IMG/VR virus record: IMGVR_UViG_3300042905_003262
Span: 1-59,706 of that record
Length of the DNA: 59,706 nucleotides
Origin: a virus
Taxonomy: Duplodnaviria > Caudoviricetes
Direction: 5' to 3' (one strand)
Part shown: positions 18,941 through 44,600 of the stretch, in pieces
Layout of the letters: every line of letters starts with the position of its first letter
Position numbering within the stretch: position 1 is the first letter of the stretch
Made by a program: the position numbers and the translations under genes
The notes under the pieces: generated by a model
Told to the model about the DNA's origin: nothing
The model's database searches: none
Seen by the model: the letters and a program-made list of their open reading frames with translations, nothing else

Positions 18941-18991
18941 AGCAACCAGTTCGGACTGGCCAACGACCAGAAGTCCGCCCGAATGAGGTAA

Positions 18992-19744
18992 TTAGTTTAC
19001 GTCTGTGAACGTGCCGGAAGTGAAGAAAGCGCCCCAAGTAGTCGCGCTCAAGGCCACAAGTTCGATGGCGTTCCCGATGGTAGCCGCGCTCGAAATGGCA
19101 TCCCCGGCGGCATTGGTGAGCGCGAGGATTTGCGTGCTGTCTGCCGGGTTAATGTCCACGTCCTGCGCGGCGGTGAGATAGACGCGGAATCGCATCCCCA
19201 CCTGTGGAGCCGGGAGAGTCAGGACTATCGCGCCGGACGCTCCAGTGTTGATAAACGTGCTGCCGTAAAGCTGGTCTGCCGTCAGGGTCGCGGTAGTGGC
19301 CTGCGTGATGACACGTTGAACATGGTTTCGAGCCAAGATATGCCACGAGCTTTGCCCAGCTTGCAGGAAAACAGACTCGTTCGGGCTGGAGAGCGTAATC
19401 GTCGTGGTGCCGTCGATGGTTTCACTGCCGCTGCCGTCAATCGTGATGGCGTTTGCCGTGCTGTCGTTCTTCTGGATGCAGATGATCTGATTCGTCTGAT
19501 TCGTCCCAGCGGGCAGGAGGCCGATGGTGAAGGCCGCCGAGGTGGCGTTGGCGAGCAGCGTATGGTCAGAGCGCGTCATTGTGTAGGCGGCACTGATGGC
19601 TTTGGCGTTAGCCTTGTAGGCAATGCCGGTGCCGTTCTGCGGATCGGTGATGTTGACGAGGCGCTGAGCGGGGGCGTGACTGCACCAAAGCAGGGCGGTG
19701 GTGAGCACGAGAGCAAACAGGGAGGCGAGGCGAGGGTATTTCAT
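18992..19744 (-). CDS. signal-peptide protein with two tail-fibre-like beta-sandwich repeats
   Basis: MKYPRLASLFALVLTTALLWCSHAPA signal; two NATSAAFTIGLLPA / NTGASGAIVLTLPA repeat domains. Upstream TTGACA-N16-AATACT promoter. Confidence 0.7.
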   Translation of the reverse strand: MKYPRLASLFALVLTTALLWCSHAPAQRLVNITDPQNGTGIAYKANAKAISAAYTMTRSDHTLLANATSAAFTIGLLPAGTNQTNQIICIQKNDSTANAITIDGSGSETIDGTTTITLSSPNESVFLQAGQSSWHILARNHVQRVITQATTATLTADQLYGSTFINTGASGAIVLTLPAPQVGMRFRVYLTAAQDVDINPADSTQILALTNAAGDAISSAATIGNAIELVALSATTWGAFFTSGTFTDVN

Positions 19745-19988
19745 GGCGATTTTAGGATGGTTTCAGGGTGCGCTGGAGTATTCAGGAGCGGGGCGGAATG
19801 TCAAGCGCGGGGCATGTTCACGAAAACAGCGGGAATTTCGTGAACAAATGCGTGCTCACTGTCAGCACGTTCCCGTGCTTGCTGTCAAAGTAGCGCAAAA
19901 GCGCCCACATTGGGCGAATCGACTCCCTGAACCGGTCAGGGGAGTGACATTTGGAAAGTCCGCGCCGGTTGAGAGGACTTTTTTCCTG

Positions 19989-20016
19989 TTGACGATTCGA
20001 GGTGAAGCGGCATTAT
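19989..20016 (+). promoter_or_regulatory. sigma70-like promoter of the ncRNA/accessory island
   Basis: TTGACG-N16-CATTAT. Confidence 0.55.
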
Positions 20017-20021
20017 CGCGC

Positions 20022-20650
20022 TCACCAAATAGGTTTGCTCTGTGCGAAGGAGTAATCCGCTCCACTGGCAAACCCACTGAGGCCGACTTTTTCGCACAAG
20101 GTCGGCCTCTTTGTTTGCCGTTTTAGCGCCAACACTCTCACCTGAAAAGGAGGTCACTTGGCAAAGGTATTGAGAGTAGAGTTCAGCGGTGGCGTAATGT
20201 AAATCCGGCATAATCACGTCTAAACCGGGCCTCGCAAAAGGTTCGTAACGCACCGTCGCAAGCGGAGTTACTGGTTCAAGTCCAGTCCGCTGAACTCTAC
20301 TCTCCGAAGGTTGAATTGAGCGGAAGCTATGATACACACCGCCATAGATAGGGGCTTACCCGCCACAGAATGCGTGCCGAACAGTTCGGAACACCACGCA
20401 CCGCAAGCAGACGTTGTTACCTGCCCGCTCAATTCAGCCTTCAAATTCGGCGCATGGTGGATCGCAGTTCAGCCATGCAGAAGTCGCTACGGGAAACTGT
20501 AGGGCTGCGCTGAAAGCATTTGAGTCGTGTTCTACTGAGACAGCCGAGCGACGAGTTTTCAGCGGTGCGAAAGCATCAAAGCGATGATCCTGATTCCCGA
20601 CGAAACAGACAGCTTGCAGTTACCCGGCAACGGGACTGCTTTGCTCCGAA
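20022..20650 (+). ncRNA. large structured non-coding RNA candidate (multi-domain, includes a tRNA mimic)
   Basis: No credible ORF. 18-bp stems 20172-20189/20287-20304 and 20306-20323/20425-20442, T-arm ACTGG-TTCAAGT-CCAGT, and three GNRA hairpins. Confidence 0.75.
20079..20116 (+). terminator. terminator/attenuator-like hairpin
   Basis: GAGGCCGAC/GTCGGCCTC 9-bp stem followed by TTTGTTT. Confidence 0.5.
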
Positions 20651-20686
20651 GCCATCAAGCCCTCCGAAACATAACTCCAACGACCC

Positions 20687-20866
20687 ATGACCACCGCCCA
20701 AACCGCCATCAAAGCCGCCCGCGAAGCCAGCGACCAGCTTGATTTGCTCCACGTCGAGAAAGCCAAACTGGAGCGCGAGCACGATGAAAAGCTCAAACTG
20801 CTCAACGAGCGCATTTCGATTGAGCGGGCGAGGCTTTCGACGCTTCTAGCCATCGCGGATAAGTAA
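20687..20866 (+). CDS. small coiled-coil protein (59 aa)
   Basis: Read by hand: MTTAQTAIKAAREASDQLDLLHVEKAKLERE...; AACGACC leader. Confidence 0.7.
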   Translation: MTTAQTAIKAAREASDQLDLLHVEKAKLEREHDEKLKLLNERISIERARLSTLLAIADK

Positions 20867-21157: not shown

Positions 21158-21472
21158 ATGCAAGACCAACAACCCCGAATGCTCCGCCTGACGCTCAAAC
21201 GCCAGTGGTTCGACATGATCGCAAGCGGCGAGAAAAAGGAGGAATACCGCACGCCTGGAAAGTGGATTCTCTCGCGCCTTGAAGGCAAAGAATACGATTA
21301 CGTCGAGTTTAAGAATGGTTACGGCCCCAATGTGCCAACTATGGTGGTTCAATACATAGGCTGGAAATACTCGCACGGGAAACGCGAATGGGGCGGTGGC
21401 TCGACTACGGGGGCGTTTGCCACGATCATGCTAGGCCGCGTCCTGTCTGTCAACAATTACGCGAAACTATGA
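21158..21472 (+). CDS. ASCH-domain protein
   Basis: LRLTLKRQWFDMIASGEKKEEYR (GxKxxExR) and F.NGY. Confidence 0.85.
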   Translation: MQDQQPRMLRLTLKRQWFDMIASGEKKEEYRTPGKWILSRLEGKEYDYVEFKNGYGPNVPTMVVQYIGWKYSHGKREWGGGSTTGAFATIMLGRVLSVNNYAKL

Positions 21473-22174: not shown

Positions 22175-22268
22175 AAAATCTAATCGCCGCCCAAATGAGC
22201 AGCGCAACCGCCGTGAACAGCAGCCCGCAAAACACCTGCAAGGACTCGTTGTAGATCGCGGCAATCAT
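22161..22268 (-). CDS. small single-TM membrane protein (35 aa)
   Basis: Read by hand: MIAAIYNESLQVFCGLLFTAVALLIWAAIRFFRLR; ATGA coupled to the amidase gene. Confidence 0.5.
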   Translation of the reverse strand: MIAAIYNESLQVFCGLLFTAVALLIWAAIRFFRLR

Positions 22269-22744
22269 GGCGGTCCAACTTGAATGAGCCAGGGTGAAAG
22301 CGGAATGTGCGACGGTGCGACTTCGGCACTTGGGATGCGTAGAAGTAGCCGCATCCCGGCATCCGCCAGGAACTTGAACACGAACTCGGAGCAGAACCAG
22401 CGTCCATTCTCACGGGCCGGTGACTTGGTTACGAATCGAAGCACGCTCAGGTAGTCGTAGGGCATCCCGAGTTGCCCTTTGGCTTCGTAGTAGGCTTGTT
22501 CATACTGCTCATCTGACATGCTCGGGATCGCGAACCAGTCGATGTGACGAAGCTCTGTTTCAGTCAGGTTATGATGCTGAACGCCTCGAAACTCGCGGGA
22601 TTCAATGACTCGATTTCGACTCCCCGGCACCAGCATGGCCGCATGGGAATAAACGCTTCGAGTCTGGCACTGGATCAACCACGACACGAGGCCGCGCCCC
22701 CGATAAAGGGCAATGCGCGGCTTCATGTTGGGTTCTTGCTGCAT
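22265..22744 (-). CDS. permuted papain-like amidase (YaeF/YiiX, NlpC/P60 C92-like)
   Basis: YSHAAM...GMPYDY...WFCSEFV (His before Cys). Confidence 0.85.
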   Translation of the reverse strand: MQQEPNMKPRIALYRGRGLVSWLIQCQTRSVYSHAAMLVPGSRNRVIESREFRGVQHHNLTETELRHIDWFAIPSMSDEQYEQAYYEAKGQLGMPYDYLSVLRFVTKSPARENGRWFCSEFVFKFLADAGMRLLLRIPSAEVAPSHIPLSPWLIQVGPP

Positions 22745-29666: not shown

Positions 29667-32600
29667 TCATTTGCCGCCGTAGTTCAGGCGTTTTCGCGCT
29701 TCAATAAGTCGTGCCTTCGCCCTCTCGGCTGCATCGTCTTTCATCGGAACGGGGCGCGGTGGAGTGCTTGGAACTGGCATCGAAGGCGCTGGCGACGGCC
29801 TCGCGGAAGGTGTCGAAGGCGCTGCGGCTGGCGTTGTGGTGCCGAAACGCTCCTCGCGGCCCATGGAGCCGCGCACGGACTTGATGGCGTTGGTCCGAAC
29901 CTCTTTGATCGCGTCGATCATCTGCGGCGTGACCGGCTTACCTGGACGCCAACCAGCCGCCATTAGTTTTCTCCCGGCGTAGTCGGAAAACTTCTGGCCG
30001 ATTTCCTGTTCAAACTTAGTGATTTTGGCCGGGTCTTTGAGGGGAACCTGCTGCATCTTGCCGTCCACTTTCGGGCCGTAAACGTAAAGGTCTGCTTTCG
30101 TGAGCGGGTCGGGATTCCATTGCTGGTCCGGGTTGGTGGCGTTCCACTTTTTAAGCGCGGCGTCAAAAAGTTCCGTGCTGGCCTTGGATGCCACCGGGAA
30201 CAGAACGCGAGTGACGGCATTTCCGCCTCGCTGCACTGGCTGCCCGGCCTCGTTGACTTTGGGCTGACCAATGCCGAGCGAGCGGGAAAGCTCCGATTCG
30301 GCCTTTTTAGCGTCGGCGATTTCGTCTTGGCTGAGACGGTAGGGCTGGCGGATTAAATTCGGGATCGCGCCATTCATCAGGTTTTTCATCAAAAGCTCTT
30401 TAGCCGAGAAGTTTTTACTCCCAGCATCTTCATAAAATTGCATAATACCCGAAATGCCTTGCAGGAATGTCTTTTCCTTCGCCTGAGCGAGGACGTGCCG
30501 CATCATGGAACCGGCGAGCTTGTCGGTGGTGCGGTTTTCGGGCTGGAAGCGGGTCCACTCTTTGAACTCGCGAGCACCGTCAACAAGCGTTGAGAGAGCC
30601 AGCGCGATAGGTTCATAGCGCCCATAGGCAAATTGAATGGGTTTATCCAGTTTTTCGCCCGTGAGCGGGTTTTTGCGGATGATGATAAGGTTTGAGCCGC
30701 CCTCTTGCCGGAGCTGGGAGGCGCGTTCACCAGCATTTGCGACACCAAACGGGCGAGAGCCTGTGATTTCGATAGCCTTTTGGTTGTCGTCGTCGTCACC
30801 CTCAGACATTCCCATGACGATGAACCAAAGAGCCGTCGCCATGACGGATTCGGACACGTCTTTGACCATCGCGCCTTCGCGGTAGGATCGGAACTCGTTG
30901 TTATTGCCCTTGATGGCGTAGTAACCCGACTTGCCGAGGCGATAGAGCAGCATTCCGGCGCTTCCGCCTGCTTTGCGGATACCAGCGCGGTAAATGTTGG
31001 TCGGCGTGCGGACGAAGGGGAGCAGGTAGCGCATGAGGCCACCCACGAATTTAGCCCGCTTGAGCGCATTCGTGACGCCTTCAACGGCCTTCGTGATGTC
31101 GTTTTCGTCCTGGAACGTGAGTTCAGTAGCCTTCTCAAAGGCGTGCTGCCACGACTCGGAGCCGTGCGTTGCAATCTGAGACGCCATGAAGTTTGTCAGA
31201 GCCGCGCCTGCCAAGCCCTGTTTTTTGCCGAGTCGATACGCCATAGCGGCGCTTTCGGCGTGCATGATGAGCGTCTTAGCAAAAGCATCCTGGGCGACAA
31301 GGAAACGGCCTGGAACGCGGACGATACGGCCCAAGGTGCCGCCGAAAGAAGGACGGATGCCGCCCACCTTGTCGAGGTTGCCGCCTTGGAACATGACCGT
31401 GACGGGCTTATCGAGATATTGGTGCTCTACCGGGTCAGCCTCCGTGTCCCATGCGAGCGCAAAGTTGCGCAAGGCTGGCATGATGCCTTTGTAGAAACCG
31501 GCCCAAACGTGCCTAAACTCTCCAAACTGCGGAGCGTTGGGATTGCGGATTGCCACATTTGTGGTCGCTTCCGCGAACCACTGCGGCCCGTAGGCCCATG
31601 CGGTTGAGAGCAGGTTAGAAGCCGTGTTGACGACGTGCGTTTGAGGGCCGGACAAAATGCCGTTGATCCAGTATTCATAAGCCTTGTCGAGCTTGGTAGC
31701 CTCGCGGGTGGAAAGCTCGCGGGCGACACGATAGACCTGCTTCCAATCGGCGGCATTATAGGGCACAAACACCTTTTGGGTCTTTTTGCCGTATGTCCAT
31801 GTAGCCTCATGGAGCCAGTTGGAATTTCGCTGCGATTTCGTTGGGATTGCGGTATTAAGAATGGACTGCACTGCTTCCGCTACTTCTTGGGCGCTGGCGT
31901 TTCGCTTCTTAGCCCTCGTGTTTGCAAGGTCTTCGGCAAGATTGCGCCGTTTGCCGCTCGGAGTTGCCCGCAAGGCATCGTCCATCTCGCTAATGATGCG
32001 CTTACCCCACTGGATGAACTTGCTGAACGTGTTACCTTTGCCGACTTCCTTGGAAACGGCCTGCTTCGCTACGACGTTGCGGAAGTGCTCTGCTGTGTTG
32101 CTTACTTCGGCGACCGAAAGCCCGGTTTCCTTCGCGATAGCGTTGTCGGAGTAGCCGCGAACGCTCATTTCGATGGCCTTTTTGTGAGCCGCCGACTGCT
32201 GGGACAGGTGAACACGGGCGAGGCCAAGAATAGCCTCCTGCATGGCGAAACGGTCATCCACGGACAAGAACAGGTCCGTTTGAGTCAGGCCGTTGCGCTT
32301 CAAGATGGCGTCCACCTTGGCGTCATCCTCGCGGGCGAGTTCTTCCATGACCTCGTTTTGATCCTTGCGAGCCTGGGCTTTCTCAAGCTCACGCTGGGCA
32401 CGTTCGCGTTGAAGCGTGTCTTGTGTCGAGGCGAGGCGGCGCTTGAGTTCCTTGATGGCCGCGAGCTTTTCGGCTCCTGACCACACGTTGACGAGTCTTT
32501 CACGCACCGTCTTGGAACTTGGCGAGAGGATATTCCGCATTGCGTTATCAAGGCGCTGTTGCGGCGTCTCGACCTTATCGACACGAGAGCCGAGCTTGCG

Positions 32601-35600
32601 GGCTGTCTCGCTGGCCTCGCGCATATCGGCCATAAAGAGCAGTTTGGCCTTTGTGCGGCTGGCAGGATTGTCGTTGCCGTCGATCCAGAGCACGCGGGCA
32701 ATCATGCGGCGGGCAATGTCTTCCTCAAGCGAGAGGACGATTCCCTCGCGCATCTTGCCGACGATTTGGTTATAGAGGCGGTCAAAGCCTGCCTGTTCGG
32801 CAATTACCTCGTCAACGGCGGCTTCGATCTTCTGGTAAGAGGCCGTTTCGAGTTCCTTGTCCTCGTAGGTCTGGCTCAGTTTGTCCCATGCGTCACGCGC
32901 ACCGGGCAGGTTGGATGCCTGATTGGCGACGTTGCGGCGTGGTTTCTTGCCAGTGTCGCCCTCTTTGACGGTCGGAGTGGCAAAAAGCGCCTGTCCTGCA
33001 TCAACGCTAGTCCGCATTTGCGGCGTGATGTCCACGCGCCAGATGGGGGTGGTTTTAAAATCACCATCGCGAGGAATTGCAGCTAGCTTGTCCGCTTCGC
33101 TCATTGCGTAAAATTCATCGCGTGAAGTTAGCGCGTCGGGATCGACGTATTCAAGCCATGCCGAATAACTACTGACGTATTTTTTCAGGCTTTCTAAATC
33201 CTCAATCTCACCATTCACCACGCCCGCGCCCCACTGCTTCACATACTTGCCAATTTCTTTCGGCAGGATGGTATCGTAGAAGCCCTTCATGCCTTGGCCG
33301 CCGACTTTCAATTCGTCGCCAGAATAGACGCGGTATCCCATTCCTGGCATATCCGCGATGGCCTTCTCTGCTAACTCCTTGCCCACGGTGTCTGCTAGCT
33401 TGGAGTCAGATAATCCAGCTTGTGAAACAGTTTCGGAGCCGCCCTTAATCCCGATTACCGACCATAGCCCGTCTTGTTGCTTGCGGATATTGAGAGAATC
33501 AACCTGCTTACTGAGGTCAAACCGCTCTGCCTGCGTCTCGCCCGTCGTCCAGCCGATCCACTGCTTGCCAGCGGCCACCGCGTCCGCGAGGGCACGCTTG
33601 AACATCTGGAGCGGCCAGGTGGTGCGGAATGGGGCGTCAGGGATTCGAGCATTCGCAATGTTGTCCAATTTGGACGCCCAATCTTTAGCATATTCAATAG
33701 CCTCGTTTTCCGTGTTTTGAGTAGAAATTGGCTTGCCCGTTGATTTTCTAATAACTACCCAATCGCCAATAAATTGATTGTTGGATGGCTCATATTTAAT
33801 CTCGAAAGTATCATTATAATCAACTTCGCCCTGATACCCCTTCTTCCGCCCTGCCTGATGGCGGTCGCTCTGGATTTCCTCGATGAACGTCCCGGCCTGG
33901 CCCTCGGCGTCCGTGCGGTCGTTCACCCGCATGTGGGCGACGTAGTTCGGCACGTCGGGGAAGTGGCTGGAGGTGTATTCAGGTGGTTCGTTGTAGGCTT
34001 CAGCAGGCGTTTCCGTGATGATTTGGAGGCGCTGCGCTTCCGACAAATCGGCCCATTTGGGTTCACCTCCTCGGCGAACAAAGGTTTCGTAATAAGCGGC
34101 TGCCGCATCCGACATCCCACGCCTCGCTATCGGCATCGCCAGCACCACCTCGCGGTAGTTCTCGCCGCCTGAGAGTTGGTATTGGGAGAATTTGGTGTCC
34201 GTAACTTCGGCTTTGTCGTCACGCATGCGGATCAACCGTTCATGCTCGTTTTTCAAACGGGTGATTTCTGGTCCGTTGCGGACTTCGGTAGGCCATTTAC
34301 TGCGATCTTCTCCATAAACATTGGCTGCGTCTTCTCGGTAGATTCGCATTTGACGCGTCACTTCGTTAATTTGACGAACAAGTTCAGGGTCATACCGATT
34401 TCCTAGCTTTCCCCCCATCCGCACCTCCTCCAGCCTCACCGCGCCATCCGTCGCCAGATATTCCAGCACAGCCTGCTTGGTGATCGGTGACGCCTGCGCC
34501 TCAATCCACGGCAGAATCCCGCTCCATTTCAGTTCCTCGGCCTTGATGCCGGTCTGCGGATTGGTGATGAGGCCCTTGATCGTCGCCACGTCGGCGCGAT
34601 TTGGCATCTTTTGCTCGATAACTTGCGCCAGTTTGGAGTAGAAGGGTTCATTTCGGACAGTTGGGCTGGCCTGCAACGGCTCCTCTACGCCATCGGCGCG
34701 GGAGGATTCAGGGTTGCCAAAATACTTCTCCTCGACCAGTTCATTGAGTTCTGGAAAGAACGTGTCCGATAGATCAAGCCATGAAACATCGCCTGAATTT
34801 ATCTTCTCCACATCAAACTCGATGTCGGCGTGCGTAGCGGCGGAGTCGGTGGCTTCGTGATCAGAAACGCGAACATCAAAAGTCACGGTTAGTTTGCCAG
34901 TGTCTTCATCACGGTCCCAAGACAACCCTTCCCGATCTGCCCACACCTCAGCGTTTGGCCCTTGTTCCGTAGGTTCTGCCAAAACTGTGAAATAGGTCGA
35001 ATTGGAGATGCGGCTGCGTCCTGTCTTGATAATTTTGGCACGACTGAATGCAGAATGATAGGTGTCGCCACGCTGCCAGCCGCGACTCTTAACGCGATCA
35101 AGGAAATTGCGGAAGTAACCGGCGGCAATACGGTTTTGCTCTTTGGTGTCTTCTGCTTCTTGGGCAGCTAAGAACTTTGGATTCTCGTAAATCGGCACCT
35201 CCGCCTCAGAAAGACCGCCCGGTGAAGATTGCAACGGCTCCTTAGTCGCGGCCCACTCTTCTAAGATCGTTTCCGGCGTCTCGGTAGCATTTTCGGCAGC
35301 ATCCATGATTTCCGCGTCCGTGATAGGCGCGAGGGTCATTTTGCCGTCTTGGATCGTCACAAGGGGCGCATAGACGCCGCTTTGAACCGCCTGCATGAAC
35401 TCTTGGCGTGTCAGGTCTGGATTCTTCGACTTCGCGGCAGCATAGACGGCGCTGACTCGTGGCGTGTCGCCTTGCTGGCGTTTGGCGGTCACGAAAGCGG
35501 CGTGGAGGTCTGGAATGGAGACTTTGGGGGCGGCAGGGGTGGCTTGGATGGGTGCCACCTTGCGGCTTTCGGCGGAAGGCAGGCTTTTTGCCAAATCCTT

Positions 35601-38600
35601 TGCATTGCGCACCATTACCTCGCGGCCTGACACGTTGCCGGTAATGCTGTGCCAGCGGTTCCACTCATCCACAAACGACCGCGCCTGTTCAGTAACTTCA
35701 TCGGACTTGCCGAGTTTCGAGAACATTCCAGCCAGTCGATTTGTGAGTTGCGAGTTTGTCGTCCGTTTGGTCGCTATAACGTCAAACACATTGCCTGTTG
35801 ATGTCCTAAACGTGGCCGAGAACTCCGTGAAGTCCTTTTTGATGCTGTCCATGAACTCCTGTTGAACATCGGAAGGCTTTTCCTCGCGGCTTTCTGGTTC
35901 TGCGGCCTCATTGACTCCACGCCAATAAATTCCCCCTCCAGACTTTTCCATCACAACCTCAAATAATGCCAAGTTTGGCCCTGACAAAGTGGACAGAATA
36001 GAATCATCGCCCTTCTTGCGGCCAAGTTTTCTATCTGTTCCCCGCTCGATCCACTCGCCGTCAGAATTGCGCGTGACAATGATGCCGCTTGGCGATGTGC
36101 GATAGGTGCGGGCATATTCGGACTGCCTGTATTTATCGGCGGCGGCCTTCGATCTGGCGTTTTCGGCGGCATCTCGACTGGCTGTCTCCTCAACGATTTT
36201 CGCCATGACCTGCCTCCCTTCGTCTCGCGGCATGATGGCAGTTTTTCCTTCGGTGTCCATTTTAGCCAACGCCAGTGATTCGCGGTCTGCGGCTTGATTT
36301 GTGGAGTTGCGTTTTTCCACATAGACGGACGGATCGCCATTCAGGCGGTGAAAATAGACCGCACGGTTGAAGTCGCCCGTTTTAGCACGCTCTTTTGCCA
36401 CTGCTGCTTCAAGAGTCTCCATCATCGTTGTTTGCGCTGATGTAGGCGGAATAATTTCCGTTTCGGGTTCTGCGGCCATCTCGGGGGATTCGGGCGCGGG
36501 GGAGGCCCACTTCTCAAGTCTGACAGCCAGTTCGTCGGCGTTCAGTTGCCAGAACTTCGCATCCATCTCCAAGGCGCGGCGCATGCGGGACGCTGATGCG
36601 GCAATGTTGCGGTTGTAATCTGGCCCTTTGCGCTCGTATGGCGCGGCCATGGCGAGCAATTCCTGTGGTGTCTTGCCTGCAAGTGTCGTGTCAGCCTGGG
36701 TTTTGAGGCTTGCGGCTTGCGGCGTATCTTCCGCAGCAATAGGGGGGACGGTTTCAACCTTCGTATCCCTTTCCGGCATCGTCGGCTCTACGACCTGCGC
36801 CTTGACGCGCATGATGACAACCTCTGCATCTGGCGAGGTGAGCATGATTGGCCCCTCTCCGCGCTCTGTGCCGCTCTTGATGGCAACTTTCTCGTGTCCA
36901 AGTGCGCGAAAACCTGCCAGCGCATCCATGACGAGTTCAGCGTCAAACGAGCCGACCGCCTCGCCGCCTTCTTGAATGTTGTGCTCGTAGGTTTCGAGGT
37001 TCTGGTTGTTCAAGACTTGGCTCTTAACTCCAAGAGAGCCGTCCTGATTGATGGAAATGGCGACGTAAGGCGTCACGTCCTCGCCTTTGCCCCTAGCAGC
37101 CTTGAAATTGACATCACGAGCAAGAGAACTGGCCTGCTTGAGGATTTGCCACAAGCGCCCCGTGTCGATGCCTTTGTGAATCACTGGAATATCGGCAGGA
37201 ACCACGGCTTTCCAGCCTGGAGGGAATTTCCCAAGTTTTTCATTCTCGGACTGGAGGCCGAGCTTGTTGCCCTTGGTGTTGAACAACATCGGATCGTCTG
37301 CCTTGCCAAACCCTTCAAAGGGAATCGTGAATAGCATCTTTCCATTGGTGGCGACAAGCACATCACCAAAGTCTGCTACCTGCATGATTGTTTGGCGCGT
37401 TTCGTCAGTGCTGGCAAACATGCCCGCCACCTTTACAACGTCTGCCTTGCCAAGTTTGCCGCTTTTGAGTGTCGGGATACCAGACTGGCGAATAGGATTC
37501 AGGGTCGGCGCGTCTGCCGATGGCGTTGTTGTCGGAAAACTCTTGGCAATCTTGGCAAAATTCTGGAGCGTCTTCTTGTCGTTCCAAAGGGTAAAAGTGC
37601 CGTCGCCTGGAATCTCGATCACCACCTTGCTTTCAGATGGAACGCTGGCGCGCACAGCCGCTTCAATATCGACTTTTTTGGCTTTGGGGTCGAGATTGTA
37701 TTTCTCGCGCAGTTTCGCCATTGCTATCCCGACATTTGGCGTGGTCGATTTGTCGCTAAGGCCCATCAGTTCAACCAAGTCTTTGCGAACGTCGCCAAGT
37801 TTGGCCTCGTCCGGCGCTGCCGCAATAGCATCGTCCAGTTTTTCGAGAAGATAGGTCTTCATGGCCCGCAACGCCTTTGTGTCGGCGGGCTTCTTTTCCT
37901 TCACAGGCTCCGGCATCGCCTCTTCCTTGGCTACGGCGGCAGCTTGGGGCGGTGTGAGGTCTGGCAGGGCGGCTAGTTGCGTGGAAACTTTGTCTTTTTC
38001 CGTTCCCATGCCTTTTCGCAGAGTGTAGCGAAGGGCTTCGCGCAACTCGTTGTAAATCTTCTGGTGTGGGGTGTTGAAAATTAGCTGCCCGTCTGCGGTC
38101 TTGGCTCCGACATCTTGCACTAGCTGCATCACGGCCTCCGTGTCGGCCTGATTGACAGCCAAGCGGATTACACGTTGCGGCATGTCCACGCGGCTTTGTT
38201 GGCTAGCGTTCATACCTAGCCACTCGCCAACGAATTGAGCCAGCGGCGAGGCGTAAGGCTCGGACTTGGTTTCTGCTGCGGCTGGCTCGGTATCATTTGA
38301 TACCTCGCGGGTGGTTTCTGACTCGGTGAACGCGGCCTTGATTTTTGCAAAGTCCACATTGCCGTTTTCAGGGTTCATTGCCCCCAACTTGGTCAATCCT
38401 TGCTGCCACTTCGGAGACATGCCGCCTTCAAACTTGGCAGTCTTGCCGCTAATGAAGTCAGCCAGCTTTGCAGTGTTGTAGGCATTGGCAAACTCGTCTC
38501 CAAATATTTCGTTGATCCACGCTACCGCCTTAGAGTCGGCATTGGCAATTAGAGAGCGATCAGATGCCAGTTTATCAGCCTCTTTAGATGCTTGGCTCGA

Positions 38601-41600
38601 TTCCCTTGCCTGTGACTCAGACTCGAAAATAACCGTCTGGAGCATCCTGAGGGCATCAGAATCCATGATGGTGAGTTCCGACTGCAAACGCTCGCCCTTC
38701 TGGTTCATGCGCGACGGCTTTAGACCTGCGTCAGTAAATGCGGTGTGCATCATGTCGCGCTCGTCAATCGTCCAACGGGTGTTGAAGCCCGGCTTCACTA
38801 AACGATCCTTGCGAAGCGTCCATGTTTTGCCATAGCCATCCATCAACGCGACGATTTTTGCGCGGAGTTTAGCAAAGTTTTCTTCGTAGGCTGCATTAAG
38901 TCGTTTCCGTGCTGCCGCATTCGCGTCCTCGGTGGAAACTTCTTCATCCTCCTCTTTCACGAGCATTTGACTGTCACCAAACGGAACACCGTTCAAAACC
39001 TGCTGGTCGGTGAGCTTACTGATGCTGTAGAGGCCATAGAGCGAGTCGCCAATCTTGAACAATCCTGGTAGAACCTTCGTCACGGGCGCATTGCCCCCGT
39101 AGTAGGCGCGAAACCACTTGGAAACCATTTCCTCTGTCACGGGAATGTTCGCCTCTGCGGTTGCGGGCGTGTCGGCTTTGGCTTTCGATTTGGTAACTAC
39201 ATCCAGCGCAGCCTTAATGTCGTCGGGGTGCTCCGTAACAAGAATAGCATCAATCTTCGCCGATGACGGTTGGCGCAAGAGTTCCTTATTGAGTTGCGAA
39301 AGCTGATTGGCGCTCAGTTTATCGAGACGATCTTTGTTGTTGACTGTCAAGGCGTCGAGTCGTGCGCTTTCCTCGTCGGAGATGATGCCGGTTGGCGGCT
39401 GATTGGCCCCTAGAAACTCAATGGCGCGTTGCAGCGTCTCGAATGGCATTCCGCCGACAAGCTCTGCGCCGGATGGCGTGTCATAGGCATGGAAGATGGG
39501 GCTGCCGCGAATACCAGTCTTCTCAACGATCACGAACTTGGCATCTCGATACGCTTCGGTAGCGCCTCTCTTGATGGCCCTGGACAACTCGGTTGATTTG
39601 CCTTCGTCCTGCTCATTCGCGAAAGCTGGAGCCGCCCCCTGTTCAGGAGACGACTCCGTAACTCCTTCCGCGCTTGGTGGACGAGATGAAACTTGGTCAA
39701 GCTCCCCGTAGATCGTAGGCCAGTGCGGATTCTCTTCGAGCGTCGAGTCAAAGCCAGACATCAAGCGCCAGAAAGCTCTGGTGTACTGCCGGAGTGCGCC
39801 ATTCGGAGCAAGTTTGTCGAGCCGTTGCGCCAGTTCTTCCGGCTTGCGAAGTCCGAGATCAATCAAGGTGCTCGCAGCCTTCATCATGGCATCGCGTCGA
39901 TCCTTGGGCAGGTCAGACTGAGCCAATGGCTTTACGGTCGGAGATGCGAACAGGCCAGCAAATGCTTCACCAAGGGCAGCATCGCCTTCGTCCATTTCCT
40001 GCGCTTTTGGCGCTTCTGCTGTCGGTTTGGCGACTTCGGGGGCAGGCGACTCCAGTTTCCACCCTCCAACGGCGGCTTGCGGCTCAACATCGCCTTCGTT
40101 CTCGCCTTCCATGCCCATGACTGGCGTTTCACCCTCAAACGAGATGACTGGCCCCATGCTGCCCTGACTGTCCATGATGATGTCGCCAATCTTGACGGTT
40201 GGGCTATCAAGGTCGGTGCGTTCCCGCTTCTTGGGCGGAGTTGAGTCATTTGGCAGGGCGTTCACCTCGGCCATGGTCATGCCTGAAACCTTTGCGACCT
40301 GCGCAGGCTCCATGCTGGTCTTATCTGGCCCAATCTGAACGTCAAAATTGCCGCCTCCTGTCCGATAAAGCACAAGCATGGGTGTTCCGTTGCGAGTCTT
40401 GCCACGCCACACGGCTGGCGTCTTGAGGAAGGCTAGGCGCTTTTGCCACGCCTCTAGGCGCTTGCCCGCCGCCTGCATGGATTCGGTCATTTCTGGCGGC
40501 GTTCCAGCGCGAGGCTTACCGTTCTTGAAGAAGTACTTGGCAGCGCGGGCGTTGTGATCTGCCACCATTTGAGCCAGAGCCTTCTCTTGAGCCTCAACGG
40601 TTGCCTCGCCTTTCGTCATCGTTTTGGCGTTTGTTGGCATTGTGCTACCGCCTTCGGTCATCACCTGCATGAACCCTTGCGAGTTTGGCGGCGAAATGAC
40701 GATGAATTGATTACCATTCGCGTCCGTAGCCGCATCACCGACAGTCCAGCCTGCCTCATCATTGCCACTTGACTCTTTCTCAGTATTGATAGAAACTGGA
40801 TTCGCAACGGTTGTTGACGACCCTTCAACCGGCTTACCGGAAGTGCTCACGGCCCCGGCGTTTTGAGTTTGCGCAGGCTCAGCGTCGGGGCTGATGCTTT
40901 TCTCGAAGGCGTCGAGGGCATCCGAGACGAGCTTAATGTCTTGATCCACCTGGGCAATCAGGTCATTCCGGGCGGACTCGGACTTGATGCTCGCGAACTG
41001 CTTCCGCAAGTCTCTCAAAAGTGCGAGAACGTCGTCAAGAAACTTGCGCCACTTGTCGGCGAGGTCTTTACCGATGACCTGCTCCGTCATGGTGCCGTCC
41101 TTCATAGCTTCGAGCATGGCGCGATAATACTCGTGGCCGCCGTGGTCTGGATTGAGCGGCTTCGGTTCGAGATCGCGAGCAACACGGCGAACCGAATATG
41201 CCTTCTCGATCTTCTTTTGGACATCTTCTGGAAGCTGGCCCCAAATGTCTTTCACGCGGGCGTCGCCAAGCTGCTCAACTACGAACTTGTGAATCAGCTC
41301 GTGGCGGAAGAATTGGCGGGCCTGAGCAGCGGCGTTGTCGGCGTCGGTGGAATCGCCAACAAAACGAGCCAATGCCGTCTCGGGATTGATAATCAACGCC
41401 TGTTCACGGCGGCCCCATGCGAAGTCAAAGGCCGGATCATCGGTGAGCACAATGGGGAGATGCCCATTGTAGCGGCGCAGACCATCAATGATGGCCTTGG
41501 CGGCAGCGGTGGCTTTGGGCTTATCGCCAGCGGATGCGGCCTGGACAATAGCAGCCATGCGAGCGTGTGCTTGCCCGATGAGTTCGCGGCCTTTGGGCGC

Positions 41601-44600
41601 TTCCGTGTCCACTTCCGCAGGTGCCGTTTCTCCTACTGTCGGGGCGGTTTCGGCGGCTGGAATGTCCGCTTTCGTGGCGGTTTGCGGCTGGCTGGCCTGC
41701 ATGAACTCCGCCAGCGTCGGGGCATAGAAGGATTCACCCTCGCGAACGGCTTTGGCTTGAGTGCGGACAGCCTCGTTGTAGTTCACCAGTATGGTGCGCA
41801 GCACGCCGGGGCCGATCTTCATTTTGGCGGCAAGGCGCGTGATGATGTCTTTCGCGGCTTCCGCATCCGCCATAGAGCCTTTGTCGGTCTGGCTTTTCTT
41901 GATCTTGGCCGCGTAAGCAAAAGCGTCGGCATCGTCTACGGTGGCAAATTCCGCGTAAGACGCTTGGCCTCCTGCGCCTTTACCAATGGCCTTGCGTTGC
42001 AATGGGGGTGCTTTGCCAAGTGCGGGGCGAGTAGCTACTGCTTTAGCGGCTCCCGGCGTCGGTGCAACCTTGGCTTGCCGGTCTGGTGAAGCGCCTTCCA
42101 CCGCCCCCTCCGATGCGGATGGACCCGACTGCACTTTGGGGGCGGTTTCAGGCGCGGGAGCGGGTTGTTTGGCTTGCTTTGGCGTGACTTTCAAGGAGTC
42201 TGCGTGCATGGAGAACTCACCAGATAGATTTGTGTATAAGTAATCCTGTGCGACATTACCTTCAGTGGTGTCTCTCACCACCTTTGATCCATCTAGCTGA
42301 ATCTCAACTCGGCCCGTGCGAGCGTTGCCATTGCCATCTACCCATTCTACGGTATCGCCTTTGTTTAGAGCTTTGAAGAAATCTTCATTAGCCTTTACGT
42401 TGAGCGCAGCCTGCATGTCTTCCCAAGCATCGCGGGTCATCCCAGCGGCTTTTGCAGCGGCTTCTCTTTTTTCTTTTGTTGCTTGGCGGTCTATATCCCC
42501 ATCAGCATCTCTTACAATATAGGATTTTCTTTCAGCATTACGCTTCCGATGAATTTCCGATGGATCGGCTGGCGTTGCTGCTGGCGTGGCGGCGGCTTCT
42601 GGCTCGGAAATGATGGTTGTGGCAGACTTGAGTTTTACCCCATATTTGTCTGCAATCGCTTGAGTATTGTTGTCTGCGAGATGCTTGTCCAAAAATTCAA
42701 GCTCGGCCTCTTCATCTTTGGACAATTGGCGTGAGATAGTGGCAATCGTTTTAGCATCTCCAGCTTTTCCATCTCTCTTCCACGTTAGTTCGTTCTGGCG
42801 ATTTTGCGCGAGCTTGCGAAGGCGGGTGCCAGACATCTCTTGTTTGGGCTTAGGCTTTGGTTTCGGCCTATTGATCGCCTGGATTCGCTCGGCTTCGGAC
42901 TGCCCGATGGTGAGGTCAGGCAACGCGCCCTTGAGCCAGTCGCGGGCCTCATCCGTGATAATGATTTGATCGACTCCGGCCTTGTTTGTGCGGGTATAGA
43001 TGAGCGGCGCGGGAGAATTTGCACCACCGGCAGGAACAAGTTTGCGGTTTTTGTCGAGCTTGACACCAAGTGCGCGCATCTGCGTCTCTGTGAGGGATGC
43101 AGAATCGGTGATTTCGCCGGATGCAATACCGGCCACTGCATCCATGGCAGCGCGAGCTTTGGCGTTGATTCCGCTCTCTTGGCCTTTCGGCACGGTGCGA
43201 ATCACGGCAGGCATCGCTTGGATGGACTCAGGAGCCGTAGGGTTGAAAGCCGCAATCGCAGCCTGAACGGCAGCCCTTTCTTCGGGAAGTGGTCCGGCGT
43301 AGGGATTTGTAGCTTCGGGAGCTTCGGGAGCTTCCGGCGCAATGTCTGGAGGCAAACCACCTGCACGGCGATCCATCCTGTCCTTCAAGGCTTGCATACC
43401 GCCACCCATGAGGCCAGAGGCAACGACAAGCTCAGGCAAGCCGGTGATAAAATCGCGCACTACATCATCAGGATTTCGCCCTTCCGCGTAGCCCTGTGCG
43501 AGCTGCGACATGGCCTCGTCAATGACCTCTTCGGGGATTTCATCAAGCGCACCTTTGGTGATAGCTTTCCCGCTGGACATAAAACCGGCCACCATGGCGC
43601 GGACCGAAGCGCGGGCCTCGGGATTGTTGGCAAGAGCCGTGACACCACCGGGGAAGAGCTTTGTAAGTCCCGCCGTCATGGCTCCGGCTGCGAGCGATGC
43701 AGGCGCAGAGGCTTTCCATGCTTCCATGTGGCTTTTACCCTCGTTGCGAAGGGTGTTGTAAGCCTCACCGTAGAGCGAGCCTGCCGTTTGCGCCCCGCCA
43801 AAGATCATGCCACCTGCCATGGAACCAGTGGCGACCGTGGCAGCGACACCGGGAGCCATGCGGGCAATCGTGCCCGCAATGCTGCCGGCCAAGCCCGTGT
43901 TGGAGAGTTGCTCTTGGGTGTTGACCAGTGAGGCCGCGTTTTCGGCGTTTGCTGCCGCCAATTTAGACCAACCTTCTCCAGCCACAGGAATGTTGCCCGT
44001 CAAAGCCGCAGTCGTGCCGAGAACTGCCTGCGTGACATCCATGAAGCCTGCCGTGACGTTGGAGGCGATCAAATCAGCCCATCGGCGGAAGAACGAACGC
44101 CCCTTCATTTGCTCCTGATACATCAAGGCTTGATCCACGGCATCCATGGCGGCGAATCCGTTCTTGCCGCCTACCTTTTGGTCCTCCTCAATCAAATGGT
44201 CGCGCCATTCGTTGAAATCAGTTCCAAAAGCTGATTGTTTCGCAAAGGCGGTAAGCAAGCCTTCGCCGTATTGGCGACGGTAGGACGGCCAGAGCTTCAT
44301 TGCCTCGGCCTTTTGTTCCGGCGTGCCGTCTGCGGCTTCGATGACTTTCTTGAATGCCTCCTCGTCACCGCCAAGGACAGGATTCGGAATGATGGCACCG
44401 TTTGGCAGCCTGCGAACCGGCTCCAGCATATCCGTAATGCCGAGCTTTTCGCGCAATGGCCGCGTCAATTCGGCGGACTTCTCGGCTTTCTCGGGGTCCA
44501 ACGGACTCGACCAATCAAGTTGACGGCGAGTCTCCATGTAGTTTCGGGCCTCTTTCTCATCAAGTCCCATCTCTTTGACCTTGGCCTTGAAGTTTGCAGG

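What the first reader, a model, noticed from the sequence alone, without database searches (positions are those of the whole stretch)
20022..20650. Candidate novel large structured ncRNA (~630 nt) built from consecutive long-stem-closed domains
Seen: in a gene-dense genome this stretch has no credible ORF and follows a promoter. Domain A is closed by a perfect 18-bp stem (20172-20189/20287-20304). One nt later, domain B is closed by another 18-bp stem with a U-G wobble that favours the + strand (20306-20323/20425-20442). Three nt later, domain C is closed by TTCGGCGCA/TGCTCCGAA (20446-20650). Domain C contains GCATGG/CCATGC, CTACGG-GAAA-CTGTAG (20487-20502), CGCTGAAAGC/GTTTTCAGCG, GTGC-GAAA-GCAT and GCAGT..CCCG-GCAA-CGGG-ACTGC (20616-20639). 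GNRA loops and wobble pairs are hallmarks of functional RNA. Large phage ncRNAs exist (GOLLD, ROOL), but I do not recognise this as one. Inference: one large RNA, or an array of small RNAs released by RNase III-type cuts in the long stems, possibly as anti-defence decoys. Best candidate for an undescribed system.
Basis: partly seen in the sequence, partly recalled or inferred. Interest (0 to 1): 0.9.

Follow-up and report, generated by a model that had tools for sequence, protein, structure and literature searches.

The report
Swappable tRNA-derived RNA cassettes in phage leader
The gene-free stretch of this lake phage is a mosaic of folded non-coding RNA modules, including two decayed tRNA-like cores held in long, almost invariant stems whose contents are exchanged between related phages; what they do is not yet known.

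Summary
The stems and hairpins are real and far beyond chance. But the stretch is a mosaic of separable + strand RNA modules, not one 630-nt RNA. (1) A promoter and a ~90-nt leader whose first hairpin loop is complementary to the loop of an intrinsic terminator; this covaries in 11 of 11 relatives. (2) A small covarying linker hairpin. (3) Cassettes A and B: 18-bp "clamp" helices that extend a tRNA-type acceptor stem. (4) Domain C, a conserved ~205-nt fold.

I found the clamps in 11 distinct phage contig lineages. They are almost invariant, and their non-Watson-Crick pairs are mostly G·U on the + strand. The cores inside them are mostly non-homologous, 57-172 nt, even where the flanks are 95-99% identical. 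Loci carry 0-3 cassettes. Three relatives' cores score at or just under the Rfam tRNA threshold (one is called tRNA-Met). The window's own cores do not, although A keeps a canonical T-arm.

Release by RNase III or RNase P/Z is inferred. There is no transcription evidence, and the anti-defence idea is untested. No Rfam family or paper matches. Earlier notes of this scan describe the same kind of constant-stem cassette on other phage DNA, with different stem sequences.

The parts
19989..20016 (+). Promoter-like site (-35 TTGACG, 16-nt spacer, -10 CATTAT) of the non-coding leader
   Evidence: Consensus scan. A -35/-10-like pair lies at the same distance upstream of the conserved AAAUAGG start in relatives (read by eye in the sequences). 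L275 carries the identical promoter sequence.
20032..20058 (+). Hairpin HP1 of the leader ('pre'): stem GGUUUGCUC/GAGUAAUCC, loop 20041-20049
   Evidence: RNAalifold consensus on 10 sequences, 8 pairs, mostly invariant.
20041..20048 (+). HP1 loop strand UGUGCGAA, complementary to the terminator loop (kissing loop or pseudoknot)
   Evidence: 11 of 11 loci keep at least 6 contiguous Watson-Crick pairs (mean 7.2), with 9 distinct loop sequences. In the cross-locus control the mean is 3.9, and 4 of 106 pairs reach 6.
20079..20119 (+). Intrinsic-terminator-like hairpin (12 pairs, loop UUCGCAC; partner strand of the kissing interaction at 20091-20098) followed by UUUGUUUGCC
   Evidence: Compensatory changes in the stem in relatives (5 of 15 predicted pairs changed on both sides).
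20136..20153 (+). Linker hairpin: 4-bp helix UCUC/GAGG around ACCUGAAAAG
   Evidence: Three covarying versions (UCUC/GAGG, UCGC/GCGG, UCGA/UCGG) in 7 of 7 sequences that have the linker. Read from the strings printed; the script's own register was off by two bases.
20172..20304 (+). Cassette A: 18-bp clamp (20172-20189 / 20287-20304) around a 97-nt decayed tRNA-like core. T-arm ACUGG-UUCAAGU-CCAGU at 20270-20286 abuts the 3' clamp strand
   Evidence: Clamp covariation U-A / U.G / C-G at position 6. The core's 3' part aligns with the L086 core that scores as tRNA. The window core itself gets no tRNA call.
20306..20442 (+). Cassette B: 18-bp clamp (20306-20323 / 20425-20442, U.G at position 6) around a 101-nt core without a recognisable T-loop
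   Evidence: The same slot holds tRNA-like cores in L118 (34.1 bits; ARAGORN tRNA-Met CAT) and in L275 (28.8 bits).
20446..20650 (+). Domain C: conserved multi-helix RNA ending 36 nt before the first ORF
   Evidence: On 5 sequences, 83.5% of cells pair in the window's fold, against 32-41% with slid partners. 12 pairs changed on both sides; 1 of 500 shuffles reaches that number.
20687..20866 (+). First downstream ORF (59 aa); context only
   Evidence: No Pfam or PHROG family.

Best explanation
The stretch is a modular non-coding locus read on the + strand, at the head of the rightward genes, whose timing was not established. It is built from independently exchangeable RNA modules.

Shown:
(a) A promoter-proximal leader in which the loop of hairpin HP1 pairs with the loop of an intrinsic terminator.
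(b) A small linker hairpin.
(c) Two cassettes. In each, a tRNA-derived core is clamped by an 18-bp helix formed by its 5' leader and 3' trailer, which prolongs the acceptor stem.
(d) A conserved 205-nt fold, domain C, in front of the first ORF.

Also shown: the clamps are nearly invariant across phage lineages, while the cores are replaced, lost or gained at exactly the base of the clamp.

Inferred mechanism:
- Most transcripts stop at the terminator and give a ~90-nt RNA.
- Read-through transcripts carry A, B and C.
- Each clamp is 18 bp. In cassette A the 5-bp T-stem stacks on it (cassette B has no recognisable T-arm), giving about two helical turns, which is the size of an RNase III substrate. 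The clamp is cut by host RNase III, or the minihelix is cut by RNase P/Z.
- That cut releases a stem-protected small RNA and separates the leader from the domain C-mRNA part. Processing stalks around rRNAs, and tRNA punctuation, work in the same way.
- The constant clamps also serve as short homology arms. Co-infecting phages can therefore exchange cores by recombination.

In this window both cores are decayed tRNA derivatives. What the released RNAs do is unknown.
For: - The stems are real and rare.
- The same clamps occur in 11 distinct lineages: WIN, L084, L085/86, L087-89, L090/99/140, L091, L092, L118, L108, L274 and L273/275/276/279. They also occur in a contig of run X23.
- The clamp pair table for 18 cassettes x 18 positions gives 304 Watson-Crick, 16 G.U, 3 A.C and 1 other. 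Position 6 of A reads U-A (3), U.G (2) and C-G (3).
- L275_A keeps pairing through changes on both sides at positions 15-16.
- By my count, about 10 distinct G.U events inside the stems stand against 2 A.C events on the + strand.
- The cores are mostly unrelated. Among 231 pairs of the 22 cores, only L086_B/L274_B align over the whole core; the rest share at most a T-arm or a 3' half.
- Exchange happens in near-identical backgrounds.
  - L118 and L108 are 96.7% identical in the leader and 94.6% in domain C. Yet L118 has A plus a 57-nt tRNA-like B core, while L108 has no A and an unrelated 123-nt B core.
  - The X23 contig is 96-99% identical to the window in its flanks. It carries 173 and 65 other letters in place of the two 97-nt stretches between the aligned flanks.
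- The empty site in L122 joins ..AAGGUA directly to AAAUC...
- tRNA origin:
  - RF00005 scores are 32.0 bits (L086_A), 34.1 bits (L118_B) and 28.8 bits (L275_B).
  - ARAGORN calls tRNA-Met(CAT) in L118.
  - A T-arm-like hairpin abuts the 3' clamp strand in 7 of 22 cassettes by script. L108_B and L275_B add two more by eye.
- The other modules covary as RNA on the same strand.
- One core, L086_B/L274_B, is conserved in two different genomic contexts.
Against: - There is no transcription evidence.
- The cores alone are not more stable than shuffles, so many may be filler.
- The clamps are conserved in sequence far more than a structural or RNase III role requires. That is not explained.
- Two clamp mismatches are A.C on the + strand: L108_B position 8 and L275_B position 6. 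Ten G.U against two A.C is suggestive, not decisive; the one-sided binomial is about 0.02 and the events were counted by me.
- A terminator lies upstream of the cassettes, and I saw no conserved promoter between it and A. Expression of A, B and C therefore needs read-through.
- The window's own cores fail the tRNA model and ARAGORN.
- The host is unknown, so its RNases are unknown. The record itself encodes no RNase III (the record is 65% complete).
Confidence: 0.5

Rival explanations
1. It is one large functional RNA of the GOLLD/ROOL kind. The leader, the embedded tRNA-like modules (as a 'linker') and the conserved 3' domain C act together as a single ornate, perhaps multimeric, molecule.
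For: [quoted passage not shown]
- All parts lie on one strand with no ORF between them.
- Domain C holds conserved unpaired stretches that could make tertiary contacts.
Against: - No match to any Rfam family, GOLLD and ROOL included, even at E up to 10.
- A terminator lies after the first ~95 nt.
- The cassettes occur without the leader and without domain C in L085-L089.
- Leader and domain C occur without cassettes in L122.
- In L275 the cassettes lie upstream of the promoter that drives the leader and domain C.
Confidence: 0.12
2. The inverted repeats act at the DNA level. They would be recombination or inversion sites, ends of miniature transposable elements, or hairpins in single-stranded DNA, and the RNA folds would be incidental.
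For: - The clamps are conserved in sequence, not only in pairing.
- Cassettes are gained, lost and replaced exactly at the clamp boundaries.
- The cores are not thermodynamically special.
- G.T wobbles could also be tolerated in a folded single DNA strand.
Against: - The slot order D0-A-B is fixed, and each clamp type occurs once per locus, unlike a transposon family.
- No core appears in inverted orientation in another locus. No strand-changing joints appear at the clamps in four runs of contigs.
- The record encodes no tyrosine or serine recombinase and no reverse transcriptase (the record is 65% complete).
- I saw no target-site duplication by eye.
- The cores are tRNA-derived, and they share their orientation with flanking RNA modules that covary.
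Confidence: 0.1
3. It is simply a decaying phage tRNA gene cluster. The clamps are a lineage-specific pre-tRNA processing signal. In this window both tRNAs are dead, and the cassettes no longer do anything.
For: - Some relatives hold near-canonical tRNAs in the same slots.
- The window's cores lack a 7-nt anticodon loop and fail tRNA detection.
- The core z-scores are about zero.
Against: - The clamps stay intact around cores with no tRNA features at all, some as long as 172 nt.
- A dead gene should lose its flanking helix as fast as its body, yet the clamp is the most conserved part of the locus. Clamp positions are nearly invariant, while leader and domain C are 55-82% identical between lineages.
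- One non-canonical core is conserved across two contexts.
Confidence: 0.15
4. The exchangeable cores are specificity determinants under diversifying selection. They would be anti-defence decoys or aptamers, or RNA-based immunity or exclusion factors between competing phages.
For: - Cores turn over rapidly in backgrounds that are 95-99% identical.
- The neighbouring kissing-loop pair also exists in 9 sequence versions among 11 loci. Specificity pairs in antisense-RNA control systems vary in this way (recalled).
Against: - No complementarity of the cores to the rest of the 59.7-kb record beyond shuffles.
- No known defence or anti-defence partner was identified.
- Turnover can be explained by recombination at the clamps without any selection.
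Confidence: 0.1

Closest known systems
Phage tRNA gene clusters and their accompanying stable small RNAs (phage T4 RNAC/RNAD)
   Same: Small, stable, tRNA-linked phage RNAs of unknown function. [quoted passage not shown] That their ends pair like an acceptor stem is recalled, not checked.
   Different: Here each unit sits in a long 18-bp leader-trailer helix that is conserved across phages while the body is exchanged. The units lie in the non-coding leader ahead of the rightward genes or behind the terminase gene, not in a tRNA island. No sequence comparison with T4 was made.
mascRNA at the 3' end of MALAT1 (tRNA-like processing module with leader-trailer pairing)
   Same: A tRNA-like element embedded in a longer transcript. 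Its acceptor stem is extended by pairing of leader and trailer, and the extension is needed for efficient RNase P processing (abstract read, PMC8457004).
   Different: That system is eukaryotic and nuclear, with a single module, a short extension carrying a bulged A, and no exchange of the body. Processing of the phage cassettes has not been shown.
RNase III processing stalks (helices flanking 16S/23S rRNA; phage T7 early-RNA sites)
   Same: A long helix made by the sequences flanking an RNA releases that RNA from a polycistronic precursor. This is textbook knowledge, recalled.
   Different: The cargo here is small (57-172 nt), variable and tRNA-derived. The helices are perfect and conserved in sequence. 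Cleavage was not tested.
GOLLD and ROOL large phage RNAs
   Same: Phage-borne, often near tRNA islands. GOLLD has a variable 5' region and a conserved 3' region, and tRNAs sometimes lie in its linker (preprint 10.1101/2024.12.08.627333, passages read).
   Different: No covariance-model match. Domain C is only ~205 nt. The modules occur apart from one another.
Bacterial Y RNAs (YrlA) with a tRNA-like module
   Same: A long helix formed by the two ends plus a tRNA-like domain (PMC4201824; only the title and the start of the abstract were seen, in the listing).
   Different: As I recall the topology, the ends of YrlA lie where the anticodon stem would be. Here the T-arm abuts the 3' strand of the closing helix, so the ends lie at the acceptor stem. 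No Rfam match. No Ro (TROVE) gene in the record.
Constant-stem RNA cassettes in phage tRNA arrays, as noted earlier by this scan (AI notes e1-6104796, e1-5980223, e1-5765815 and others)
   Same: A nearly constant 17-19-bp stem encloses a different small RNA in each copy. The elements are phage-only and exchangeable, and those notes call them undescribed.
   Different: No short words are shared with this window's stretch, so the stem family differs. Those stems are said to start on the CCA end of a preceding tRNA. Here the stem is the prolonged acceptor stem of the cargo itself. I could not see their sequences.

Membership tests
tRNA (Rfam RF00005) | Covariance-model score at or above the gathering score of 29 bits | tested here: not met
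   Window cassettes A and B give no RF00005 match even at E up to 10. ARAGORN finds 0 genes in the window. Relatives' cassettes do score: L086_A 32.0 bits, L118_B 34.1 bits, L275_B 28.8 bits.
tRNA (Rfam RF00005) | T-arm (5-bp stem, 7-nt UUCRANY loop) directly stacked on the acceptor stem | tested here: met
   Met for cassette A: ACUGG-UUCAAGU-CCAGU at 20270-20286 abuts the 3' clamp strand. Not met for cassette B.
tRNA (Rfam RF00005) | Anticodon arm with a 5-bp stem and a 7-nt loop carrying U33 | tested here: not met
   In cassette A's fold the corresponding arm is 7 bp with a 6-nt loop CGCAAA. Cassette B has none.
GOLLD / ROOL / other large ornate RNAs in Rfam | Match to the family covariance model | tested here: not met
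   0 matches at gathering score over the whole window. Over 19900-20750 at E up to 10, only two chance-level hits to unrelated families.
Bacterial Y RNA (YrlA) with Ro | Rfam match; a Ro (TROVE) protein gene nearby | tested here: not met
   No Rfam match. No TROVE match in the 59.7-kb record (the record is 65% complete).
Retron non-coding RNA (msr-msd) | Flanking inverted repeats next to a reverse transcriptase gene | tested here: not met
   Inverted repeats are present, but there is no RVT_1 match in the record. The downstream ORFs are small proteins of unknown function.
Invertible DNA segments / integron-type recombination sites | A site-specific recombinase; both orientations or excised forms in a population | tested here: not met
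   No Phage_integrase or Resolvase match in the record. No strand-changing joints at the clamps in four runs of contigs. No core found inverted in another locus. Contigs can hide rare forms.
RNase III processing stalk | Staggered cleavage of both strands of the helix by RNase III | not testable with these tools
   Only the geometry fits: 16-21 bp of continuous pairing in 19 of 22 cassettes. Where a T-arm is present (7 of 22 by script; 9 of 22 with two added by eye), a 5-bp T-stem stacks on the helix.

The most novel reading that the evidence does not exclude
The clamps are a universal 'socket' for small RNAs. One constant leader-trailer helix supplies expression, processing and protection. Diverse RNA cargos (tRNAs, tRNA mimics and unrelated folds) are plugged into it and exchanged between phages by recombination at the helix. 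This would work as an integron-like cassette system for RNAs rather than for protein genes. The cargo would be under diversifying selection in phage-host or phage-phage conflict. The neighbouring kissing-loop leader, with its 9 sequence versions, would be a second, RNA-based specificity switch, giving immunity-like control of read-through into the locus.
Probability: 0.2. Interest if true: 0.85.

Novelty: new variant of a known kind. Interest (0 to 1): 0.7.

Why it matters
Phage tRNA genes and tRNA-like RNAs are usually treated as codon-usage helpers or as curiosities. Here a tRNA-type frame (acceptor helix, often with the T-arm) is kept almost letter for letter across phage lineages, while everything inside it is replaced. 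That suggests the frame itself is a reusable device for making or presenting small RNAs.

If the clamps are processing and stabilising signals, they offer a natural and portable way to express arbitrary small RNAs in bacteria. If the cargos matter in conflict with hosts or other phages, this is a new class of rapidly exchanged RNA weapons.

The kissing interaction between a leader hairpin and the loop of its own terminator covaries in every relative. It is a directly testable new candidate for RNA-controlled termination of transcription at the head of a phage operon.

Tried and rejected
Known families and annotated phages.
- Rfam at gathering score over the whole window: 0 matches.
- Rfam at E up to 10 over 19900-20750: only two chance-level hits.
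- ARAGORN on the window: 0 genes.
- blastn of 19900-20700 against GenBank phages: no match.

Looking for relatives through neighbouring proteins.
- The 250-aa upstream protein gave 2 loci. The 104-aa downstream protein gave 80 loci kept of 547 confirmed relatives among 560 pattern-matching stretches. The capsid-like protein gave none.
- nhmmer of the region against these 82 loci found nothing.
- The closest one, L004, has no comparable gene-free gap and no long inverted repeats.
- An exact 24-nt T-arm pattern found nothing in viral contigs.
- The junction pattern found nothing in genome contigs.
- The leader pattern in genome contigs gave 120 stretches. None matched the arrays by blastn, so I treat them as chance hits. 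No host was identified.

Transcription.
- The only certain RNA run, X22, has two 151-nt contigs at depth 2 over 18949-19235 and nothing over the stretch.
- X23 and X24 are labelled RNA, but the tool judges X23 'probably DNA'.
- These are contigs, so this is no evidence for or against expression.

Antisense targets. Complementarity of at least 11 nt between leader, cores or domain C and the rest of the window is no more frequent than with shuffled queries.

DNA inversion. No core matches the reverse complement of another beyond background.

Core stability. No signal.

Partner genes. No reverse transcriptase, Ro/TROVE, RNase III, tyrosine or serine recombinase in the record (the record is 65% complete). 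No array-linked protein is shared between the two kinds of context.

Further copies. No further clamp-like sequence in the window, apart from one 2-mismatch hit that is within chance.

Papers. Seven searches found no description of long conserved leader-trailer helices around exchangeable tRNA-like cores in phages. Subscription journals and supplementary files were not searchable, so older phage tRNA literature may hold relevant cases.

Slips.
- One search aligned L091 on the wrong strand; it was repeated correctly.
- The script used a register off by two bases, so I read the helix from its printed strings.
- The script missed two T-arms because their clamps have an internal mismatch.
Full report
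**What the window is.** The window is a whole IMG/VR virus record of 59,706 bases, estimated 65% complete. Near-identical DNA occurs in many lake-water metagenome runs: 21 of 24 listed runs hold at least half of the sampled words, and three of them may be the source sample. The stretch lies in a gene-free gap of about 940 bases. On one side is a leftward gene that starts at 19744. On the other are small rightward ORFs that begin at 20687. The upstream neighbours are structural-type genes, and the downstream ORFs have no known function.

**Checking the observation.** Stem A is perfect, and stem B has one U.G on the + strand. The + strand fold of 20022-20650 is -245.1 kcal/mol against -196.5 +/- 5.9 for shuffles (z = -8.2). 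The - strand gives z = -3.3. Every hairpin listed for domain C appears in the fold.

The window has no other stem of at least 16 bp enclosing 40-260 nt, whereas 1.91 Mb of unrelated fetched loci have 45. A promoter-like site lies at 19989-20016. No ORF in the stretch has a Pfam match.

Two things were missed.
- First, a terminator-like hairpin with a T-run lies at 20079-20119.
- Second, the cores inside the clamps are not more stable than dinucleotide shuffles. Over the 18 cassettes then in hand (of the final 22), mean z was -0.27 and 3 of 18 were below -2; both window cores scored about 0. The striking overall z-score therefore rests on the clamps, the terminator and domain C.

**Finding relatives.** Rfam, ARAGORN, GenBank phages and synteny through neighbouring proteins gave nothing.

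The break came from laying metagenome contigs on the window. A 1,129-nt contig of run X23 matches three pieces of the window:
- 19989-20189, with 2 differences and 1 gap;
- 20287-20323, with no differences;
- 20421-20625, with 7 differences and 2 gaps.

In place of the two 97-nt stretches between these aligned pieces, that contig carries 173 and 65 other letters.

I then searched for the junction of A's 3' arm and B's 5' arm, for a degenerate two-clamp pattern, for the leader motif and for B's 3' arm. These searches brought in the other clamp-bearing loci. They were sorted by blastn and by inspection.

The distinct lineages that hold clamps are WIN, L084, L085/86, L087-89, L090/99/140, L091, L092, L118, L108, L274 and L273/275/276/279. 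L122, L148 and L106 have the leader but no cassette.

**The cassettes.** In all of these loci the clamp sequences are nearly the same, and a third slot, D0, exists in L085-L089. The three clamp types are related to one another. The 5' arms of A and B agree at 12 of 18 positions (my count), and all three types end in AGCGG/CCGCU.

Over 18 cassettes x 18 clamp positions there are 304 Watson-Crick pairs, 16 G.U, 3 A.C and 1 other. Position 6 of clamp A reads U-A in three cassettes, U.G in two and C-G in three, which is a classic compensatory series. L275_A changes both sides at positions 15-16 and keeps pairing. A population variant in run X21 turns G-C into G.U at 20426.

I counted distinct events inside the stems. 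About ten are G.U on the + strand and two are A.C (L108_B position 8 and L275_B position 6). This favours pairing of the + strand as single-stranded nucleic acid. Given the context it is most simply RNA, but this is not proof.

By contrast the cores are 57-172 nt and mostly unrelated. Among 231 pairs of the 22 cores only one pair, L086_B/L274_B, aligns over its whole length. A few others share a T-arm or a 3' half.

Replacement happens in nearly identical backgrounds.
- L118 and L108 are 96.7% identical in the leader and 94.6% in domain C. Yet L118 has A plus a 57-nt B core, while L108 lacks A and has an unrelated 123-nt B core.
- The X23 contig shows the same pattern against the window.
- In L122 the site is empty. 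The linker end ..AAGGUA runs straight into the AAAUC that elsewhere follows the last cassette.

Cassettes are therefore discrete units bounded by the base of the clamp. A locus carries 0 to 3 of them, always in the order D0-A-B.

**tRNA origin.** The inner seven pairs of each clamp act as an acceptor stem. A 5-bp hairpin with a UUCRANY loop abuts the 3' clamp strand in 7 of 22 cassettes by script. L108_B and L275_B add two more by eye. The window's cassette A is among them, with its T-arm at 20270-20286.

Three cores in relatives reach or nearly reach the Rfam tRNA threshold of 29 bits:
- L086_A scores 32.0 bits, with a 53-nt insertion in the D-loop and an 8-nt anticodon loop.
- L118_B scores 34.1 bits, and ARAGORN calls it tRNA-Met(CAT).
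- L275_B scores 28.8 bits.

The window's core A aligns with L086_A over the variable-loop and T-arm part. It has no 7-nt anticodon loop and gets no tRNA call. Core B has no T-loop. Both window cassettes are thus decayed or remodelled tRNA derivatives in an intact frame.

**The other modules.** The first ~95 nt form a separate element found in 11 loci. It has hairpin HP1 and a terminator hairpin, and their loops are complementary. All 11 loci keep at least 6 contiguous Watson-Crick pairs (mean 7.2) with 9 different loop sequences. Loops taken from different loci give a mean of 3.9, and only 4 of 106 pairs reach 6. This is the strongest covariation in the locus.

A 4-bp linker helix exists in three compensated versions in 7 of 7 sequences (read from the printed strings).

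Domain C is shared by WIN, L091, L092, L118, L108 and L275. On five sequences 83.5% of cells pair in the window's fold, against 32-41% for slid partners. Twelve pairs changed on both sides, and 1 of 500 shuffles reaches that number. The structure was derived from the window itself, which biases the cells-paired figure. The hairpin at 20487-20502 is replaced in X21, X23, L118, L108 and L275 by a different hairpin of the same length with compensated pairs.

**One RNA or several.** The modules occur apart from one another.
- The D0-A-B array stands alone behind a terminase-like gene in L085-L089.
- Leader and domain C occur without cassettes in L122.
- In L275 a degenerate leader, the linker, A and B lie upstream of a promoter identical to the window's, which is followed by its own leader and domain C.

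Together with the terminator after the leader, this argues against one obligatory 630-nt RNA. It favours a mosaic of autonomous RNA modules in a hyperplastic region.

**How it most likely works (inference).** Transcription starts at the promoter. Most transcripts stop at the terminator and give a ~90-nt RNA. The kissing interaction may set how much reads through.

Read-through RNA carries the cassettes. In 19 of 22 cassettes the clamp has 16-21 continuous pairs. Where a T-stem is stacked on it, the helix spans about two turns, which is the size of an RNase III substrate (textbook knowledge). The minihelix of acceptor stem plus T-arm is what RNase P and RNase Z recognise.

Cleavage would release clamp-protected small RNAs and separate the leader from the domain C-mRNA part. 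Two known cases work in a similar way:
- the stalks around rRNAs;
- mascRNA, where an extended acceptor stem made by leader-trailer pairing is required for efficient RNase P processing (abstract of PMC8457004).

The constant 18-37-nt clamp sequences would also act as homology arms for exchange between co-infecting phages. None of these steps has been tested. No RNA data cover the stretch.

The near-invariance of the clamp sequence goes beyond what pairing alone needs, and it remains unexplained.

**Rivals.**
- A single GOLLD-like RNA. GOLLD has a variable 5' part and a conserved 3' part, and sometimes has tRNAs in its linker. This fits the layout, but it does not fit the separability of the modules or the lack of a model match.
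- DNA-level recombination sites. These would explain the sequence conservation and the exact boundaries. However, there is no recombinase or reverse transcriptase in the record, no inverted core and no transposon-like copy pattern.
- A merely decaying tRNA cluster. This does not explain intact clamps around cores that are not tRNA-like at all.
- Decoy or immunity functions. These are possible but have no supporting evidence.

**Comparison and novelty.** No Rfam family matches the window. Seven literature searches found no description of this arrangement. Supplements and subscription journals were out of reach.

The nearest known things are:
- phage tRNA clusters with their stable small RNAs of unknown function (T4 RNAC/RNAD, passage in PMC9697503);
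- mascRNA;
- RNase III stalks;
- GOLLD.

Earlier AI notes of this scan describe constant-stem cassettes with exchangeable cargo in the tRNA arrays of other uncultured phages, and a structured cassette array behind an early promoter. Those notes are unchecked by me. They share no short words with this stretch. I take them as independent sightings of the same kind of thing, with a different stem family. I rate this a new variant of a known kind: tRNA-linked phage small RNAs and processing stalks, with an unusual, testable cassette logic.

Noticed in passing
window 20041-20048 with 20091-20098; same element in L084, L090, L091, L092, L106, L108, L118, L122, L148, L275: The loop of the first leader hairpin is complementary to the loop of the terminator hairpin in 11 of 11 loci, with 9 different sequences. 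It could be a cis pseudoknot that tunes termination. It could also be a trans-acting specificity pair, as in antisense-RNA immunity systems.
   Followed up: partly
L275 5990-6720 (same lineage: L273, L276, L279): Here cassettes A and B lie upstream of a promoter identical to the window's, and that promoter has its own leader and domain C. So array and domain C can be separate transcription units. In this lineage clamp B has a C.A mismatch at position 6.
   Followed up: partly
L274 700-1175: An ORF end that reads like the C-terminus of a tyrosine integrase (by eye) is followed by a tRNA-like sequence (RF00005, 26.2 bits, below threshold). Cassettes A and B come next. Clamp A has a 2-nt bulge and two U.G pairs.
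   Followed up: no
L087 7123-7330 and 7332-7509: The long non-tRNA cores contain short ATG-started frames of 35 and 22 codons by eye, the first with a GAAGG eight bases upstream. This may be chance, and conservation was not checked.
   Followed up: no
window 20687, 20887 (starts of the first two rightward ORFs): No Shine-Dalgarno-like purine run precedes these ATG codons (by eye). The only strong AAGGAGG in the region (20147-20153) lies inside the covarying linker hairpin, and it is not conserved as a sequence in relatives.
   Followed up: no
window 29667-46079, - strand: A single open frame of 5,470 codons, more than a quarter of the record.
   Followed up: no
window 21158-21472: This 104-aa protein of unknown function (phrog_625) has at least 547 relatives in IMG/VR. 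The closest of them do not carry the non-coding locus.
   Followed up: partly
L041 3180-5280, L210 3018-5700, L026 6600-7510: Unrelated fetched loci hold their own clusters of repeated stems of 16-41 bp enclosing 50-210 nt. They may be other stem-closed element families.
   Followed up: no
window 22265-22744, - strand: This ORF matches a PHROG annotated enoyl-CoA hydratase/carnithine racemase-like, in the category moron/auxiliary metabolic gene (E = 1.3e-26).
   Followed up: no
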